A stretch of 64,000 bases of DNA from Escherichia phage AnYang, in sequence record MK234886, one strand, 5' to 3'. Shown here one piece after another: positions 50,922 to 61,562 of this stretch. Position 1 is the first letter of the stretch. Each line of letters begins with the position of its first letter. The notes beneath the pieces were generated by a model. That model had not been told where the DNA came from, ran no database searches, and worked only from the letters and a program-made list of their open reading frames with translations. The translations under genes were made by a program, and so were the position numbers.

Positions 50922-51671
50922 TTAACCTCTAATCAGTGAAAAAATTGAAGCATTCAGCGGAAGACCTTTTTTCAACTTCAATTTGTCAATAAAAGAAAGG
51001 TGTTCTAAACGCTCCAGACCTTGAATAATTTTATCATACATATCGTAACGCGTTTCTGCTTCAGACAATTTAAACTTGACGCGCCAATCAGGCCCACCAA
51101 TTAAAGATTTAAGGCCTTTTTCCATAGTACCGATTGAAGCATTAGAACCATGGATACGAGCTTTAACCGCGATGACAGAAGGGGTCTTATCAGTAGCTCC
51201 TGATTTAATAAGGTCCTTAAGACGTTTTTCACGCTTTTTAAGGCCTCTTTGGGTATCTTTAATATTTTTAACGATTTTACGAATTTTATAATAATTATCG
51301 GGGGTAACTTTAAAACTATTAGGCATTTTAGAACTACCTGAAATACGGGACGCTAAACGAGTCTGTGCACGTTTCAATTCATCTAAAGACAAATCAGCGC
51401 GCAACCAGTTGTACTTAACTTTAACCGGGATTACATTACCTTCGATATAACCTATATCGTTGTTAAAGCGTTCAAAAGAAATCTTATCACTATCTGAATT
51501 CTCATCAAAGCGCTCGCCTGAATATGCACACACTTTTTGTTCAAGAAGTCTACGAACGTACTTACTAGACAGGTTAAAGTCCTTACCACGTTTTTTGGCA
51601 GAGGCTTTAGTGTGTTCGCGACGTTTGTAAACCTTTAACTCAAATTCATCAGTAGTTTTAATAGTAGGCAT
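50922..51671 (-). CDS. hypothetical protein at the T4 srd position
   Basis: 249 aa between dda.1 and the ModA/B-like genes; promoter 51712..51740; call by synteny only. Confidence 0.45.
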   Translation of the reverse strand: MPTIKTTDEFELKVYKRREHTKASAKKRGKDFNLSSKYVRRLLEQKVCAYSGERFDENSDSDKISFERFNNDIGYIEGNVIPVKVKYNWLRADLSLDELKRAQTRLASRISGSSKMPNSFKVTPDNYYKIRKIVKNIKDTQRGLKKREKRLKDLIKSGATDKTPSVIAVKARIHGSNASIGTMEKGLKSLIGGPDWRVKFKLSEAETRYDMYDKIIQGLERLEHLSFIDKLKLKKGLPLNASIFSLIRG

Positions 51672-51809: not shown

Positions 51810-52424
51810 TCAGTAAGAAAGAACGGAAAGATTCCAAATGGTGTAATTATTCCATTTAGGATTTCTCTCAATAGAGTCTACGCGCAGCGTAGTTCCCGCA
51901 GGGAACATCATCTCATCTTCATCATTTATTAATTGTAAGTTTGCTACACGGGTAGATTCAGGAAATGCGCCTGGGAACTCTTCAGGGGGTGCGGCACATA
52001 ACATTTTAAAGATTTCTTCCTGATAATTGTACACAAATGGTGCATCATTAATACAAAAGATATTAAATGTGCCGTAGAAGTTATAAGATGCGAAGTTACG
52101 AGCTACATTGAAATCTTTTGAGAAGCTCATTACTCGGTCGAATTCAATTACGGCACCTACACACATTGTGGACTCTAGATACTTCATAGTCTTTTTAGAT
52201 ATACCGCGATAGAGCTTATCAGGCACTACAGAAGTCAGGTTCTTACGAATAATTTTGTTCAGAGTTTCCTGGATATTATCTGGTTTATTTTCCATGCACT
52301 GCCAGAGCGTGCTCTGTTCTAAATCAGAATAAACCTCATCAATTTCTATCTGAGTATTCTCACGGAAATCATCGCATTTGGCGTTGTTGATAAATTCTGC
52401 TAATTTATGGCTCGGATATAACAT
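51810..52424 (-). CDS. ModA/ModB-like mono-ADP-ribosyltransferase (R-S-E class)
   Basis: LYRGIS (Arg), MSFSKD (Ser-x-Ser), EDEMMF (Glu); about 204 aa; paralog of the adjacent gene. Confidence 0.65.
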   Translation of the reverse strand: MLYPSHKLAEFINNAKCDDFRENTQIEIDEVYSDLEQSTLWQCMENKPDNIQETLNKIIRKNLTSVVPDKLYRGISKKTMKYLESTMCVGAVIEFDRVMSFSKDFNVARNFASYNFYGTFNIFCINDAPFVYNYQEEIFKMLCAAPPEEFPGAFPESTRVANLQLINDEDEMMFPAGTTLRVDSIERNPKWNNYTIWNLSVLSY

Positions 52425-52479: not shown

Positions 52480-53048
52480 TAAAAATCCAACATTTTTAAA
52501 TGAATTGTTTTGTACTCGATTTCGCACGGGTCTCTTTTGACGGTTTCGATTTCAACAATCTCGAATCGTGATAGGCCGGAGACCATGAACTCACATTCAG
52601 TTTCAACCATATCATAGAGGTCAATACGAGTTTCATCAATTTCAAGGTCGTCTACATTCCCTGCAAGAACAAGGTCGATAGCATGGTTGTAGTAGTCGAA
52701 AATGAACGGTGCATTCCTGAGACTTAAAATGGTTTTGGTTCCGTATTCCCATGCCCCTGCGAACTGACGAGCCTGAGAGTATTGTGTACTAAAAGAAGTA
52801 ACGCGACCAGGAGACCATTGACAACCTACTGAAAGGAGCTCTAATTGCTCAAGTTCTCTGGTGGTAATCCCACGATACAACTCTACCGGAACCGCTGAAG
52901 TAACATGCTTACGGACTAGTTTGTCGAGGTCGTAATGGAAGTTAGGGTCCTTTTTAGCATCCAGACATTTCTCTAACAACGCTTGTTCAGATTTTGAAAA
53001 TTTGGAATTGATTCGGTCTTGATAAAGACATTTTTGTTCGATGTTCAT
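52479..53048 (-). CDS. ModA/ModB-like mono-ADP-ribosyltransferase (R-S-E class)
   Basis: LYRGIT, TSFST, ECEFMV; about 189 aa; promoter 53073..53101. Confidence 0.65.
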   Translation of the reverse strand: MNIEQKCLYQDRINSKFSKSEQALLEKCLDAKKDPNFHYDLDKLVRKHVTSAVPVELYRGITTRELEQLELLSVGCQWSPGRVTSFSTQYSQARQFAGAWEYGTKTILSLRNAPFIFDYYNHAIDLVLAGNVDDLEIDETRIDLYDMVETECEFMVSGLSRFEIVEIETVKRDPCEIEYKTIHLKMLDF

Positions 53049-58350: not shown

Positions 58351-58791
58351 TTAACCTCGATTCATAAAGGCATTAAAAATCTGGTCATCGATTGAATAAA
58401 CCGGGGCCTCCAGAATTTTCAACAGACTATTTTTGATGTACTTGCTAGGGATATCCATATTAACGCCGTCATTCAATTCGTTGTCCGGGAGGATGTCTTT
58501 AAATTCAAATCCATCAAACTCAACCTTGTCGGGAATACCTTCAGCGAAAAAATAAACCAATTGGTGCATTGCATTGCACGAAAATAATTTAGACCTCACC
58601 GCAATAAGTTCTTGCCAATGGTTTAATTCTCTGTTAAGAAGTTTATGAGCCATTGTAATTCTATCATCACTATCAACAAGAAAATAACCTAGGTATTGGT
58701 GGTCGTCGCTCCAATACATCCGGTATGCTTGTGCATTTGGATTTTTACAACGAAGTTTTTTGATAACTAAATTTCTGTTAATCTTATTCAC
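58351..58791 (-). CDS. hypothetical protein (146 aa)
   Basis: ORF track. Confidence 0.45.
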   Translation of the reverse strand: MNKINRNLVIKKLRCKNPNAQAYRMYWSDDHQYLGYFLVDSDDRITMAHKLLNRELNHWQELIAVRSKLFSCNAMHQLVYFFAEGIPDKVEFDGFEFKDILPDNELNDGVNMDIPSKYIKNSLLKILEAPVYSIDDQIFNAFMNRG

Positions 58792-59376: not shown

Positions 59377-59517
59377 TTATTCCTCGCCTTCATGTTTATG
59401 GGCAATTTCTTCGAATTCGCTGTCACAGTCTAAACAGGTTGCGTTATCCCAAGCATCAAATACCGCTTGGTCTTCGCAGACCGAACAACCACATACTACA
59501 CATTCAAATTCTTCCAT
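59377..59517 (-). CDS. Cys-rich acidic peptide (46 aa), not in ORF track
   Basis: Manual translation MEEFECVVCGCSVCEDQAVFDAWDNATCLDCDSEFEEIAHKHEGEE; start abuts the dmd stop. Confidence 0.35.
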   Translation of the reverse strand: MEEFECVVCGCSVCEDQAVFDAWDNATCLDCDSEFEEIAHKHEGEE

Positions 59518-59721
59518 TTAGATTTCCTCAATGCGGGCATCATATTCAAAAACTTTATTGTCATCAACAAAGGCTTTCACCAGCGCATTATTCACTTCTG
59601 CATACTGCACTGTAACCCATTCAATCATATTTTGGTCACTAACATCCAGAACGGTTTCTTTGGTAAACATATTACCATTTTCAAACCAACCAATAAACAC
59701 TACTTTCTCTAATTTAGGCAT
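59518..59721 (-). CDS. dmd: Dmd-like antitoxin (inhibitor of RnlA/LsoA toxins)
   Basis: KVVFIGWFENGNMFTKE...QYAEVNNALVKAF.DD matches my recollection of T4 Dmd; about 67 aa. Confidence 0.7.
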   Translation of the reverse strand: MPKLEKVVFIGWFENGNMFTKETVLDVSDQNMIEWVTVQYAEVNNALVKAFVDDNKVFEYDARIEEI

Positions 59722-60039
59722 TTAGATTTCCTCACAGAAAGCCCATTCGGCATGATAAACCGTAGCGCCTTTAGTATCATTTAAACAAACCACATCTACC
59801 GGAGCAATTACACGATAAAGACGGGGTTCTCCTCCCACTGAACGAGCTGCACGTCCAGCATAAATCTTAGCCAAACCGATATCTTCAGTAAAGAACACAC
59901 GATTTAGGTTTTTCTTACGACCGGTTTCAGACAAAACTCCTGTTTCCTCAGGAGGACAAAGCATATTACCGATATTAGCAACACTACAACTTCCATGATA
60001 ATACACTTTATATTCTGCTTTACAGTCGATGGTTTTCAT
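59722..60039 (-). CDS. Arr-like minimal ADP-ribosyltransferase candidate (H-Y-[ED] class)
   Basis: YYHGSCSVANIGNML / RVFFTEDIGLAKIYAG / RLYRVIAPVD align by eye with the Arr rifampin ADP-ribosyltransferase core as I recall it; own promoter 60064..60092. Confidence 0.5.
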   Translation of the reverse strand: MKTIDCKAEYKVYYHGSCSVANIGNMLCPPEETGVLSETGRKKNLNRVFFTEDIGLAKIYAGRAARSVGGEPRLYRVIAPVDVVCLNDTKGATVYHAEWAFCEEI

Positions 60040-60063
60040 TTTGTTCTCCAAGTTGATAGGTCT

Positions 60064-60092
60064 ATAGTATCACGCCTACAGGAGATGTAAAC
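60064..60092 (-). promoter_or_regulatory. T4-type early promoter (drives the Arr-like ORF and dmd)
   Basis: -35 GTTTAC (60087..60092), 17-nt spacer, -10 TACTAT (60064..60069). Confidence 0.6.
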
Positions 60093-60099
60093 CCTTAAA

Positions 60100-60122
60100 A
60101 ACAAAAAAGGAGCCGAAGCTCC
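60100..60122 (-). terminator. intrinsic terminator downstream of gene 41
   Basis: GGAGC-TTCG-GCTCC hairpin followed by TTTTTTG. Confidence 0.7.
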
Positions 60123-61562
60123 TTAAAATTTGATAGATGCGGCTAAATCGTCCAAATCACTTCTATTAACACGCGTCTGTCGATTGACCTCGGCTTGACG
60201 ATTCATCTCACCTGTAGCCTCACGAACAGTGTTCACTGGACCTGGATTGGAATCATCTTCAACTTCGTACCAACGTTGATTTCCTTTCTTAACACCAATC
60301 TTAAATTTGTTGTAGTAGCTCTTATCACCATAACGAGATTTAAGCTGCTTAACCATCTGCATACCCATTTGGGCAAACTCTTCTGTCTCGACCACACCTA
60401 ACATGAAGTCTGCAGTATGTGCAATACCAAAGGATTCGGCAATATCAGCCATATCGATTTCGGCTGCAACGTTCGCACCACGAGTAGTCTGGGCTGCAGT
60501 CCACAACAATAATTTCTTTTCTACTGCAAGTCCACGTAGTTCTTCGGCTACCATCTTAATCAATCCGTAACTGTTTTCAGAGAAAACTTTCGTACGAGAC
60601 GATGCACAGATGGCCAAGTAGTCGACGATAACGACCTGTGGGACAAAGTTTTGTTTGAGCTTATATTCGTTTAATAATGCACGGAATGTATCGGCATTAG
60701 CACCACCAGTAGGGTACTGTTTAATCTTTAAACGTCCTAAGGTAGCAGTCGAACGCCATTTATCCATCTTAGCTTTATATTCAGGCCATGATACGTGACC
60801 ATCATCGATATCATCCAGTGACACATCCAGAAGGTTGGCATCGATACGCTTAGCACATACTTCCTCTGCCATCTCCATGGAGATATAAAGAACATCGTAA
60901 CCAGATTGAAGGTAATCAGCAGCCAATGAACACAGACCAAGAGACTTACCTACGTTTGTTCCTGCCAACAATACGTTTTCAGTACCAAACTCGGCACCAC
61001 CTTTAGTAATCTTATTCAGAATATTAAGACGGAACGGAACCTTACGTGCTTTATCGGAATAACTTTTGAATCGTTCTTCATAGTCATCCATCCAGTCATG
61101 ACCTAATTCAGAATCGAAACAAATCGATAATGCATCACGCATGATATCTGGAATAGCGCCAATACCTGGAAGTTTTCTATTTTGTTGCTCAACCGGAAGG
61201 TCTGCATTAGTTTGGATTTCAATGATTTTTGAAGTTGCATTATACATCGCTGCTTTCTGAACGTATTTCTCCGTCTCTTTAACCAACCATTCTTGGTCTT
61301 CAGGTCCAGCATTCAGTGAGCTTAAAAGCTCTTTAGCTCCTTGATGTTCGACTTCTGAAAGCGTGCTGTTATCTAATGCAATGCTCAATGCGTTCTTAGA
61401 AGGCACTGCATTATATTCATTGACGTGTTTTTTAATTTCTTTGAAAAGGGTCTTTGCAGGACCCTGGTCAAAATAAGAATCATTCATATAAGGCCAGACC
61501 TTAGTGAAATAATCACTATTGCCTAGCAGTTGAGCCAAAATAGTTTCTACCACTTCCACCAC
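60123..61562 (-). CDS. 41: gp41 replicative DNA helicase (DnaB-like)
   Basis: 479 aa; RecA-like helicase motifs (GTNVGKS Walker A); size and synteny with 61 and uvsX. Confidence 0.9.
   Translation of the reverse strand: MVEVVETILAQLLGNSDYFTKVWPYMNDSYFDQGPAKTLFKEIKKHVNEYNAVPSKNALSIALDNSTLSEVEHQGAKELLSSLNAGPEDQEWLVKETEKYVQKAAMYNATSKIIEIQTNADLPVEQQNRKLPGIGAIPDIMRDALSICFDSELGHDWMDDYEERFKSYSDKARKVPFRLNILNKITKGGAEFGTENVLLAGTNVGKSLGLCSLAADYLQSGYDVLYISMEMAEEVCAKRIDANLLDVSLDDIDDGHVSWPEYKAKMDKWRSTATLGRLKIKQYPTGGANADTFRALLNEYKLKQNFVPQVVIVDYLAICASSRTKVFSENSYGLIKMVAEELRGLAVEKKLLLWTAAQTTRGANVAAEIDMADIAESFGIAHTADFMLGVVETEEFAQMGMQMVKQLKSRYGDKSYYNKFKIGVKKGNQRWYEVEDDSNPGPVNTVREATGEMNRQAEVNRQTRVNRSDLDDLAASIKF

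What the first reader, a model, noticed from the sequence alone, without database searches (positions are those of the whole stretch)
59722..60092. Arr-like minimal ADP-ribosyltransferase ORF inserted between dmd and gene 41
A 105-aa ORF with its own early promoter carries YYHGSCSVANIGNML, RVFFTEDIGLAKIYAG and RLYRVIAPVD. By eye these align with the H-G-[ST] / Tyr / acidic core of the Arr rifampin ADP-ribosyltransferase minimal fold as I remember it. That fold class (H-Y-E) differs from the R-S-E phage transferases Alt/ModA/ModB, two of which are also present in this window. To my recollection T4 has no gene between dmd and 41, so this looks like an acquired cargo gene beside a known anti-toxin, a plausible position for a host- or defence-targeting effector.
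Basis: partly seen in the sequence, partly recalled or inferred. Interest (0 to 1): 0.7.

Follow-up and report, generated by a model that had tools for sequence, protein, structure and literature searches.

The report
Arr-related phage early ADP-ribosyltransferase gene
This is a real, very conserved 105-residue early gene of T4-like phages that encodes a stripped-down relative of the rifampin ADP-ribosyltransferase Arr; it was predicted as such in a 2022 paper, and nobody yet knows what it modifies.

Summary
The ORF is real: window 59722-60039, minus strand, 105 aa. It sits between gene 41 and dmd, behind a T4-type early promoter, and is under strong purifying selection. An AlphaFold model (pLDDT 87.5) has an ADP-ribosyltransferase (ART) fold. 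Its best PDB matches are Arr, KptA/Tpt1 and AcrIF11. Profile comparison shows specific homology to Arr over strands 1-4 (hhalign 96.8%, E 2e-10).

It is not an Arr equivalog. The catalytic Tyr is Phe and the catalytic Asp position is hydrophobic. Arr's rifamycin lid is shortened and its C-terminal helix is absent.

It is not acquired cargo. The gene occurs in 608 phage records (Escherichia, Klebsiella, Acinetobacter, Aeromonas and Vibrio phages). The same domain is embedded in giant phage polyvalent proteins, and it is almost absent from bacterial genomes. T4 lacks the gene. Here dmd looks like the mobile cassette, because 16-nt direct repeats flank it.

Iyer et al. 2022 described what is very probably this ART-Dmd pair as a possible toxin-antitoxin module. 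My data argue against obligate pairing, since Dmd is adjacent in only 10 of 61 loci.

Most likely it is an immediate-early NAD+-dependent effector acting on a conserved host target. The acceptor is unknown. The prediction is already published, so interest is moderate.

The parts
59722..60039 (-). CDS of the 105-aa Arr-related ADP-ribosyltransferase (ortholog of JS98 gp034 / RB69 ORF040c; PHROG 2110). Stop codon included.
   Evidence: ORF list and sequence. PHROG 2110 at E 1.5e-60. JS98 annotation. AF2 model with ART fold. hhalign to Arr at 96.8%.
60046..60049 (-). Shine-Dalgarno GGAG, 6 nt upstream of the ATG.
   Evidence: Read directly from the sequence.
60064..60091 (-). T4-type early promoter: (G)TTTACA, 16 nt, TACTAT with TG just upstream. 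It drives the ART-dmd-downstream early unit.
   Evidence: Promoter scan. T4 has the same kind of promoter directly in front of dmd, and ART homologs in other lineages have one too.
60097..60124 (-). Intrinsic-terminator-like hairpin AAGGAGC-TTCG-GCTCCTT plus a T-run, closing gene 41. Together with the promoter it forms a PeSL-like composite terminator-promoter.
   Evidence: Terminator scan. PeSL concept from PMC2839356 and PMC4122927.
59518..59721 (-). dmd (antitoxin against RnlA/LsoA). Its start codon abuts the ART stop codon, and its SD (GAGGA) lies in the last ART codons.
   Evidence: Pfam Dmd at E 5e-22. PHROG 2102. Junction sequence.
59719..59734 (-). First copy of the 16-nt direct repeat TGAGGAAATCTAAATG (ART/dmd junction).
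   Evidence: read.
59515..59530 (-). Second copy of the 16-nt direct repeat TGAGGAAATCTAAATG (junction of dmd and the 46-aa ORF).
   Evidence: Related phages L015 and L020 have the ART followed directly by the 46-aa ORF.

Best explanation
The ORF encodes a phage-specific, minimal NAD+-dependent mono-ADP-ribosyltransferase. It is homologous to Arr over the NAD-binding half of the fold. It is made in the first minutes of infection from a T4-type early promoter.

Inferred mechanism:
- NAD+ sits in a pocket formed by H15-G16-S17 (strand 1), F49 and T51 (strand 2), A57 (pocket floor, equal to Arr Ala57) and Y60 (equivalent to the second nicotinamide-stacking Tyr of PARP/DT).
- The invariant D-loop E38-x-G40-R41-K42-K43-N44 is shared in part with Arr (E40-x-G42-R43). 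It gates the pocket and recognises the acceptor.
- No catalytic acid is conserved at the Arr D84 / PARP Glu position. Transfer is therefore probably substrate-assisted, onto a carboxylate or phosphate nucleophile.

The acceptor is not rifamycin. It is a highly conserved host component, or a host-defence component or signal. The enzyme serves host takeover or counter-defence, just as the same domain does when delivered inside injected polyvalent proteins of other phages. It works independently of Dmd.

Status of each step:
- Shown: the gene, its expression signals, the fold, the homology, the residue conservation and the distribution.
- Inferred: catalytic activity, mechanism, acceptor class and biological role.
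- My split for the acceptor: protein about 0.4; nucleic-acid or nucleotide phosphate about 0.35; other small molecule about 0.1; non-catalytic binder about 0.15.
For: Fold:
- AF2 model pLDDT 87.5.
- Foldseek PDB top hits are Arr 2hw2 and 9iaf, then KptA/Tpt1 and ART toxins.

Homology to Arr:
- Pfam Arr-ms is weak for the window protein (15.1 bits). It is above the gathering score for relatives (26.9-31.5 bits), and 29 of 57 multidomain relatives match at E<=1e-4.
- hhalign of the family against Arr gives 96.8%, E 2e-10, over residues 11-84.
- A family profile finds only Arr chains in the whole PDB sequence set (E 1e-3).

Residue conservation in 100 representatives that are <=50% identical to each other:
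- H15 and G16 100%; S/T17 100%; E38 99%; R41 97%; F49 98%; T51 97%; A57 99%; Y60 99%.

Early expression: promoter in the window and in other lineages.

Purifying selection.

Effector context:
- 57 of 149 representatives are multidomain.
- Partner domains are ART-PolyVal, NUDIX, portal, 2H/Acb1-like, CHAP, GNAT, Toprim, LPD23 and ddrB-ParB.

Phage restriction: only 5 loci in 185,579 species genomes. Two of them lie on T4-sized contigs (167 and 178 kb) that look like phage genomes.

Against: - No biochemical data exist for any member (literature searches).
- The canonical catalytic triad is incomplete (F for Y; hydrophobic for D/E). An NAD/ADPr-binding but non-catalytic protein is therefore not excluded.
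- The window protein itself scores below the Pfam and NCBIfam cut-offs.
- The D-loop is the least confident part of the model (pLDDT 71-80).
- Nothing in the data identifies the acceptor.
Confidence: 0.6

Rival explanations
1. Toxin-antitoxin pair. The ART is a toxin that is neutralised by the adjacent Dmd, as proposed for 'p0068-family ART + Dmd' by Iyer et al. 2022.
For: - In the window the two genes are translationally juxtaposed (TAA-ATG, with the SD inside the ART 3' end) and share one early promoter.
- Dmd is a bona fide antitoxin-like protein (Pfam).
Against: - Only 10 of 61 IMG/VR loci with the ART have Dmd within 3 kb.
- In Pseudotevenvirus, Biquartavirus, Acinetobacter phages and other lineages the ART sits elsewhere with unrelated neighbours.
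- Near-identical contexts exist with Dmd (L018) and without it (L019).
- T4 has Dmd without the ART.
- ART proteins that are >=99% identical sit next to Dmd alleles only about 54% identical, so the two do not co-vary.
Confidence: 0.08
2. KptA/Tpt1-like or nucleic-acid-directed enzyme. It ADP-ribosylates a terminal or 2'-phosphate of RNA (or DNA, or a nucleotide second messenger). The role would be RNA repair, end-capping or destruction of an immune signal.
For: - The nearest relatives, Arr and KptA, both use non-protein acceptors.
- There is no catalytic acid, but there is an invariant basic D-loop R41-K42-K43 and R63.
- In polyvalent proteins the domain is fused or adjacent to NUDIX (3 cases) and to a 2H/Acb1-like phosphoesterase (1 case), which process ADPr derivatives or cyclic nucleotides.
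- It neighbours dmd here and rnlB in RB16.
- Iyer et al. also speculate on RNA substrates.
Against: - The N-terminal RNA-binding lobe of Tpt1, which carries most of its R-H-R-R tetrad (established knowledge), is absent. The protein is only 105 aa.
- Strand 2 has Phe, not the His of the H-H-h clade.
- The NUDIX and 2H fusions are a small minority.
- The rnlB and dmd proximity lies in hyperplastic early regions and is not conserved.
Confidence: 0.25
3. A genuine Arr. It inactivates rifamycin-type antibiotics, protecting host RNA polymerase during infection.
For: Sequence and fold are closest to Arr. Iyer et al. note true Arr-family genes in some actinophages.
Against: - NCBIfam rifampin_ARR equivalog scores 12.9 bits against a cut-off of 130.
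- Homology stops at strand 4.
- The Arr lid around N86-K91 is shortened by 4-6 residues.
- The C-terminal helix alpha2 (residues 112-143, carrying the rifamycin contacts L130 and L133) has no counterpart.
- The H-Y-D motif is H-F-hydrophobic in this family.
Confidence: 0.02
4. A non-catalytic NAD+/ADP-ribose-derivative binder. It would act as a sponge or decoy, for example against NAD-derived immune signals or NAD-consuming defences.
For: The NAD-pocket residues are invariant while the classical catalytic acid is missing and Tyr is replaced by Phe. The protein is small and made early.
Against: - Active ARTs without a catalytic acid are well known (KptA; H-Y-I/L PARPs; the motif is described).
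- The domain is embedded among enzymatic effector domains in polyvalent proteins. A single injected copy would make a poor stoichiometric sponge.
Confidence: 0.1

Closest known systems
Arr / Arr-ms / Arr-2 rifampin ADP-ribosyltransferase (PF12120; PDB 2HW2, 9IAF, 9IBA)
   Same: - Single-domain minimal ART fold.
- Homologous over strands 1-4: H-G-[ST], the E-x-G-R D-loop motif, [VI]-[YF]-x-T on strand 2, the Ala57 pocket floor, and the G-G/R-G turn before strand 3.
- Arr chains are the only PDB sequences found by the family profile.
   Different: - 105 aa against about 140-150 aa.
- Tyr49 is Phe and Asp84 is Leu/Ile/Val.
- A Tyr (Y60) stands where Arr has Gly60.
- The lid loop is shortened and the C-terminal rifamycin-binding helix is absent.
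- Scores are below the Pfam and NCBIfam cut-offs.
- The family is phage-restricted rather than bacterial chromosomal or plasmid-borne, and is expressed as a phage early gene.
'p0068-family ART + Dmd' module of Iyer, Burroughs, Anantharaman & Aravind 2022 (Viruses 14:1977, PMC9503650)
   Same: An ART gene lies immediately upstream of dmd in Escherichia, Shigella and Salmonella T4-like phages. That is exactly the arrangement in this window. It is very probably the same gene family.
   Different: - I could not verify the family assignment, because the paper's supplement is not held.
- The paper reads the pair as a type II toxin-antitoxin system. My distribution data show that the two genes occur independently.
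KptA/Tpt1 RNA 2'-phosphotransferase (NAD lobe)
   Different: It lacks the whole N-terminal RNA-binding lobe. Strand 2 has Phe, not His. No sequence-level hit.
AcrIF11 (anti-CRISPR mono-ADP-ribosyltransferase, PDB 6KYF)
   Different: No detectable sequence similarity. The target of the present family is unknown.
T4 Alt / ModA / ModB
   Same: Phage ARTs of T4-like phages that reprogram the host. ModA and ModB are early genes. Two Mod-like ORFs are in this window.
   Different: They belong to the R-S-E clade and are not homologous at sequence level. This family has H-G-S.
ART-PolyVal (PF18760) domains of polyvalent proteins
   Same: Both occur as modules of injected polyvalent proteins. They are sometimes in the same polypeptide (8 of 57).
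   Different: A different ART family (H-Y-D, Tox-ART-HYD2-like). The window protein is a solo domain.

Membership tests
ADP-ribosyltransferase (ART) superfamily | Split beta-sheet ART fold | tested here: met
ADP-ribosyltransferase (ART) superfamily | Strand-1 NAD-binding motif H-G-[ST] (or R) | tested here: met
   H15 and G16 are invariant and S/T17 is 100% in 100 representatives.
ADP-ribosyltransferase (ART) superfamily | Strand-2 aromatic residue plus nicotinamide pocket | tested here: met
   F49 (98 F, 2 Y), T51, A57 and Y60 are >=97% conserved. A57 aligns with Arr Ala57. The spacing F49+8 and F49+11 matches PARP1 Y896/S904/Y907 (PARP numbering from my own knowledge; Arr data).
ADP-ribosyltransferase (ART) superfamily | Catalytic acid (E/D/Q) at the strand-4/5 position | tested here: not met
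   Arr D84 aligns with L86 (L/I/V in 82 of 100). No conserved acidic residue follows strand 3. This also holds for active H-H-h and H-Y-I/L enzymes, so it does not exclude activity.
ADP-ribosyltransferase (ART) superfamily | NAD+-dependent ADP-ribose transfer | not testable with these tools
   Needs biochemistry.
Arr rifampin ADP-ribosyltransferase (PF12120 / NF033144) | Score above the curated family cut-offs | tested here: not met
   Pfam 15.1 bits against 25. NCBIfam equivalog 12.9 bits against 130. Relatives in polyvalent proteins do pass the Pfam gathering score (26.9-31.5 bits).
Arr rifampin ADP-ribosyltransferase (PF12120 / NF033144) | Homology to Arr detectable by profile methods | tested here: met
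   hhalign 96.8%, E 2e-10, 66 columns. hmmsearch of family profile A2 against the PDB hits only 2hw2 and 9iaf (E 1.1e-3) and 9iba (E 1.2e-2).
Arr rifampin ADP-ribosyltransferase (PF12120 / NF033144) | Catalytic H-Y-D motif (H19, Y49, D84 of MsArr) | tested here: not met
   H is met. Y is replaced by F49. D is replaced by L86.
Arr rifampin ADP-ribosyltransferase (PF12120 / NF033144) | Rifamycin-binding elements: lid loop (N86-K91) and C-terminal helix alpha2 (L130, L133) | tested here: not met
   The protein ends at the position of Arr residue 111. The lid is 4-6 residues shorter.
Arr rifampin ADP-ribosyltransferase (PF12120 / NF033144) | Rifamycin inactivation | not testable with these tools
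   Needs an MIC or in vitro assay.
KptA/Tpt1 RNA 2'-phosphotransferase | Two-lobe architecture with an N-terminal RNA-binding lobe carrying the R-H-R-R tetrad | tested here: not met
KptA/Tpt1 RNA 2'-phosphotransferase | H-H-h active-site pattern | tested here: not met
   Strand 2 has Phe, not His. The third position is hydrophobic, as in H-H-h.
ART-Dmd type II toxin-antitoxin module (Iyer et al. 2022) | ART gene immediately upstream of dmd in one operon | tested here: met
   TAA/ATG juxtaposition and a shared early promoter.
ART-Dmd type II toxin-antitoxin module (Iyer et al. 2022) | Consistent co-occurrence of toxin and antitoxin | tested here: not met
   10 of 61 loci have Dmd. T4 has Dmd alone. 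L018 and L019 differ only by Dmd. Dmd alleles diverge beside an identical ART.
ART-Dmd type II toxin-antitoxin module (Iyer et al. 2022) | Toxicity of the ART and its neutralisation by Dmd | not testable with these tools
   Needs expression experiments.
ART-Dmd type II toxin-antitoxin module (Iyer et al. 2022) | Sequence membership in the 'p0068-like' ART family | not tested
   The defining alignment or supplement is not held. Identity is inferred from the matching gene neighbourhood and host range only.
R-S-E phage ARTs (Alt/ModA/ModB) | R / S-T-S / E-x-E motifs and sequence similarity | tested here: not met
   No Pfam or PHROG match to the Mod/Alt families. Strand 1 has His, not Arg. T4 ModA and ModB match other ORFs at 51.8-53.0 kb.
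Polyvalent-protein effector domains | Occurrence as a module in large multidomain phage/MGE proteins with LPD, MuF/portal or ART-PolyVal partners | tested here: met
   This holds for relatives: 57 of 149 representatives. The window protein itself is a solo domain.

The most novel reading that the evidence does not exclude
The family is a phage-exclusive branch of the Arr/KptA lineage whose acceptor is not a protein. The acceptor would be a phosphate-bearing nucleic acid end or a nucleotide-type immune signal. It would be recognised by the invariant E-x-G-R-K-K-N loop and attacked through substrate-assisted catalysis. That would be a new enzymatic counter-defence or RNA-modification mechanism, used both by T4-like phages as an immediate-early gene and by other phages as an injected polyvalent-protein module.
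Probability: 0.25. Interest if true: 0.8.

Novelty: already known. Interest (0 to 1): 0.35.

Why it matters
The T4 paradigm of host takeover by ADP-ribosylation rests on the R-S-E enzymes Alt, ModA and ModB. This gene shows that most other T4-like phages carry, in addition, an unrelated Arr-type enzyme that T4 lacks. That is probably why it has never been studied.

Three features make it a good experimental target:
- It is extremely conserved (62-100% identity among the T4-like homologues, from Aeromonas to Escherichia phages).
- It is expressed immediately early.
- Other phages reuse the domain as an injected polyvalent-protein module.

Together these point to an important and universal host target. 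Finding the acceptor would extend the known chemistry of Arr-like enzymes beyond rifamycins. It would also settle whether Dmd has anything to do with this enzyme. The prediction itself is already in the literature and in some GenBank annotations.

Tried and rejected
- Direct sequence search of the window protein and of the close-family profile A1 against the PDB found nothing. Only the broader profile A2 reached Arr.
- P0120, a divergent homologue, gave only chance PDB hits: gamma-glutamyl hydrolase and DNMT2 at E > 0.1. I rejected these.
- A weak Pikachurin-EGF Pfam hit in 7 of 39 members (E 0.013) comes from Cys-rich composition. I rejected it.
- PADLOC defence models gave no hit for the window protein or three relatives.
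- The genome-contig scan with the broad alignment A2 failed because no stretch was conserved enough. I repeated it with A3.
- The afdb50 fold library was unavailable.
- The supplement of Iyer et al. 2022 is not held, so the 'p0068' assignment could not be verified.
- Conserved partners of the ART outside the dmd context have no Pfam or annotated PHROG function: PHROG 7439/7204 upstream, and small membrane ORFs, 30.6, PHROG 7467 and 7619 downstream.
- The 'acquired cargo' reading was rejected on distribution.
- The 'true Arr' reading was rejected on the missing rifamycin-binding elements.
- Literature searches for any experimental work on RB69 ORF040c, PHROG 2110 or Arr-like phage ARTs found none. 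The HIDEN-SEQ preprint covers only phages without this gene context.
- Model coordinates are not exposed. I could not measure the 3D proximity of E38/R41 to the NAD pocket or superpose the model on Arr residue by residue.
Full report
**1. The observation**

The window carries a 105-codon ORF on the minus strand at 59722-60039. Its ATG is preceded by GGAG. Further upstream lie a terminator-like hairpin that closes gene 41 (60124-60107) and a promoter, GTTTACA-N16-TACTAT (60091-60064), of the T4 early type.

Downstream, the stop codon TAA is followed at once by the ATG of dmd (59518-59721; Pfam Dmd E 5e-22). After dmd come a 46-aa Cys-rich ORF, a 61.4-like gene, spackle, and a gene in the position of T4 61.2.

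The window is a Dhakavirus (JS98-like) genome. The region is 95-98% identical to phages C6 and JS98. The ORF is JS98 gp034, annotated as 'similar to RB69 orf040c'.

In T4, gene 41 is followed after 58 nt by dmd, with an early promoter in between.

The ORF is certainly a gene:
- PHROG 2110 matches end to end at E 1.5e-60.
- 608 phage records encode it.
- Against JS98 it has 11 nucleotide changes, 10 at third codon positions, and no amino-acid change.

**2. What the protein is**

Pfam gives only a sub-threshold hit to Arr-ms (PF12120; 15.1 bits, E 0.026, residues 13-77). NCBIfam gives a very weak hit to the rifampin_ARR equivalog. The link is nevertheless real, on three lines of evidence.

*(a) Structure.* An AlphaFold2 model built on 39 homologues is confident (pLDDT 87.5, pTM 0.79).
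- In Foldseek its best PDB matches are Arr-ms 2hw2 and 9iaf, then KptA/Tpt1 and the cholera and typhoid toxin A chains.

*(b) Remote relatives.* An exhaustive HMMER search of 1.84 billion representatives found 245 relatives. Many of them pass Pfam's gathering score for Arr-ms (26.9-31.5 bits). Among multidomain relatives, 29 of 57 match at E <= 1e-4.

*(c) Profile comparison.*
- Comparison of the family (139 sequences) with an Arr alignment gives 96.8% probability, E 2e-10, over residues 11-84.
- A family profile searched against all PDB sequences finds only Arr-ms (E 1.1e-3) and Arr-2 (E 1.2e-2).
- In BFVD the nearest non-orthologous viral model is a 94-aa siphovirus protein that UniProt already names 'Rifampin ADP-ribosyl transferase'.

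**3. Residue-level comparison with Arr**

MsArr is described as having an H-Y-D catalytic motif (H19, Y49, D84). [quoted passage not shown] Its rifamycin contacts come from a lid around N86-K91, from the F39 loop, and from the C-terminal helix (L130, L133).

Alignments and conservation in 100 representatives that are at most 50% identical to one another give the following.

| Window residue | Conservation (of 100) | Arr-ms equivalent |
|---|---|---|
| H15-G16-S17 | H and G 100; S/T 100 | H19-G20-T21 |
| E38-x-G40-R41 | E 99; R 97 | E40-x-G42-R43 (a specific shared motif) |
| F49 | 98 Phe, 2 Tyr | Y49 |
| T51 | 97 | T51 |
| A57 | 99 | A57 |
| Y60 | 99 | G60 |
| L86 | L/I/V 82 | D84 |

- Y60 stands at the spacing of the second nicotinamide-stacking Tyr of PARP1 and diphtheria toxin (my own knowledge of those enzymes).
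- No acidic residue is conserved anywhere after strand 3.
- The lid is 4-6 residues shorter.
- The protein ends where Arr residue 111 lies, so the whole C-terminal helix is missing.

The NAD+ half of Arr is thus conserved. The rifamycin half and two of the three 'catalytic' side chains are not.

The pattern H-F-hydrophobic plus Y60 resembles active enzymes that lack a catalytic acid, such as KptA and the H-Y-I/L mono-ARTs. It fits substrate-assisted transfer to a carboxylate or phosphate. That last step is inference.

**4. Distribution and context**

*Phage records.* The gene is present in 608 phage records from Escherichia, Klebsiella, Acinetobacter, Aeromonas, Enterobacter, Cronobacter, Vibrio and other phages. 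Identity is 62-100% for all but a few of the listed hits; the lowest listed is a Vibrio phage at 32%. Several records already call it 'putative ADP-ribosyl transferase'.

*IMG/VR loci.* I retrieved 62 related loci; an ART ORF could be delimited in 61 of them, and the counts below use those.
- 18 have gene 41 just upstream.
- Only 10 have Dmd downstream.
- 12 (Pseudotevenvirus RB16/RB43 and Aeromonas Biquartavirus) have the gene behind a conserved 250-300-aa protein of unknown function (PHROG 7439/7204), near srd and rnlB.
- Acinetobacter phages and other groups have yet other neighbours.

*Promoters.* A GTTTAC[AT]-N16/17-TAT[TA]AT promoter precedes the gene in most lineages. It is often embedded in an inverted repeat. 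This is the PeSL type of composite terminator-promoter cassette, which has been proposed to drive modular shuffling in T4-type genomes (PMC2839356, PMC4122927).

*Multidomain relatives.* Of 149 listed representatives, 57 are multidomain. The ART module is C-terminal in 29, internal in 21 and N-terminal in 7. Partner domains are ART-PolyVal (8), NUDIX (3), DUF7178 (3), a portal protein plus a 2H/Acb1-like phosphoesterase, a minor tail protein, CHAP, GNAT, Toprim, LPD23 and ddrB-ParB. These are the hallmarks of injected polyvalent proteins (PMC5512222). One such 870-aa protein sits in a phage replication-gene cluster.

*Bacterial genomes.* In 185,579 species genomes only five loci were found. 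Two of them lie on T4-sized contigs (167 and 178 kb) that look like phage genomes, and one is a solo copy next to an IS in a Kaiserbacteria chromosome. The family is therefore essentially phage-exclusive. It is not a typical bacterial TA toxin or polymorphic toxin.

**5. Relation to Dmd and to the literature**

[quoted passage not shown] They speculate about RNA substrates.

The neighbourhood and host range match this locus exactly. The finding is therefore very probably already published as a prediction. I could not check the family assignment because the supplement is not held. I found no experimental study of the protein.

My data weaken the TA reading:
- The two genes occur independently (T4 has Dmd alone; 51 of 61 ART loci have no Dmd).
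- Near-identical contexts exist with Dmd (L018) and without it (L019).
- ART proteins that are >=99% identical flank Dmd alleles only about 54% identical.

dmd in the window is bracketed by a 16-nt direct repeat, TGAGGAAATCTAAATG (59719-59734 and 59515-59530). Phages L015 and L020 show the corresponding 'empty site', with the ART followed directly by the 46-aa ORF. So dmd, not the ART, looks like the cassette that comes and goes here.

**6. Most likely function**

The best-supported reading is an immediate-early, NAD+-dependent mono-ADP-ribosyltransferase. It acts on a highly conserved host or host-defence target, and is the free-standing version of a module that other phages inject as part of polyvalent proteins.

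- Shown: the gene, the promoter, the fold, the Arr homology, the conserved NAD pocket, and the phage-restricted distribution rich in polyvalent proteins.
- Inferred: activity, substrate-assisted chemistry and role.

The acceptor is open.
- A protein target is suggested by phage precedents (Alt, ModA, ModB, AcrIF11) and by the report that a Mod-like ART occupies the same position next to Dmd in some Klebsiella phages.
- A phosphate-bearing nucleic-acid or nucleotide target is suggested by the nearest relatives (Arr, KptA), the invariant basic D-loop, the missing catalytic acid and the occasional NUDIX/2H partners.

Other readings:
- A true rifamycin-inactivating role is very unlikely.
- A non-catalytic NAD/ADPr binder cannot be excluded.

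**7. Verdict**

It is partly wrong: the H-Y-acid core is not intact, the gene is not acquired cargo, and the idea is not new.

- Novelty: already known as a computational prediction and annotated as such in several genomes. Biochemically it is uncharacterised.
- Interest: moderate (0.35). The gene is a good experimental target, because it is so conserved and T4 lacks it, but the finding adds little beyond the published prediction.

What this analysis adds is the residue-level departure from Arr, the evidence against obligate Dmd pairing, and the link to polyvalent proteins.

Noticed in passing
window 59515-59530 and 59719-59734: A 16-nt direct repeat, TGAGGAAATCTAAATG, brackets dmd. Both the ART and this Dmd end in ...EEI*, whereas T4 Dmd ends ...VDCRG*. 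Related phages (L015, L020) have the ART followed directly by the 46-aa ORF, which is the 'empty site'. dmd therefore looks like a cassette gained or lost by recombination between the repeated gene junctions.
   Followed up: partly
L006, L008, L009 versus the window (dmd at 59518-59721): Phages whose ART is >=99% identical to the window's carry a Dmd allele only about 54% identical. dmd is being swapped or is diversifying beside a frozen neighbour.
   Followed up: partly
window 60064-60124; L013, L015, L016, L020, L037, L043 upstream of the ART: A composite terminator plus early promoter precedes the ART in many lineages. The -10 element often lies inside an inverted repeat (L013: TCTCCAGTAGTTG...CAACTACTGGAGA), as in PeSL cassettes. 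T4 has the same element in front of dmd.
   Followed up: partly
L005 1567-2472 (RB16p228); L003 1680-2441 (44RR ORF171c): A conserved 250-300-aa protein of unknown function (PHROG 7439/7204, no Pfam hit) lies immediately upstream of the ART in 12 Pseudotevenvirus and Aeromonas-phage loci. It may be a functional partner.
   Followed up: partly
window ~51819-52424 and ~52548-53015 (-), and 50925-51635 (-): There are two Mod-like (ModA/ModB, 33-36% identity to T4) ORFs and an Srd homologue (51% identity). The phage therefore carries R-S-E ARTs as well as the Arr-related one.
   Followed up: partly
window 58351-58791 (-): A 146-aa ORF occupies the position of T4 61.2 (AdfA, anti-DarT factor). It has only a tiny C-terminal hit to Pfam AdfA (residues 133-146, E 0.0067). 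It may be a diverged or truncated AdfA.
   Followed up: no
window 59377-59517 (-): A 46-aa acidic ORF with CxxC...CxxC spacing (PHROG 13952, unknown function) is translationally coupled to dmd. It looks like a small zinc-ribbon protein. L020 has two tandem paralogues.
   Followed up: no
GenBank KY979109 (Salmonella phage SHP1) and OM386662 (phage ESCO47), hits H26 and H31: The ART ORF is annotated there as 'clamp loader subunit DNA polymerase'. This is evidently a mis-annotation.
   Followed up: no
L074 4902-5348 (Candidatus Kaiserbacteria chromosome OY969413.1): This is the only clearly chromosomal copy of the domain found in 185,579 species genomes. It is a 148-aa solo protein next to an IS-type transposase/integrase ORF.
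   Followed up: no
L019 3289-3855; L016 3318-3608; L021 3288-3641: In dmd-less relatives the ART is followed, again stop-to-start, by different secreted or lipoprotein-like ORFs with signal peptides. The slot after the ART is a hot spot for periplasm-directed accessory genes (spackle is nearby).
   Followed up: no
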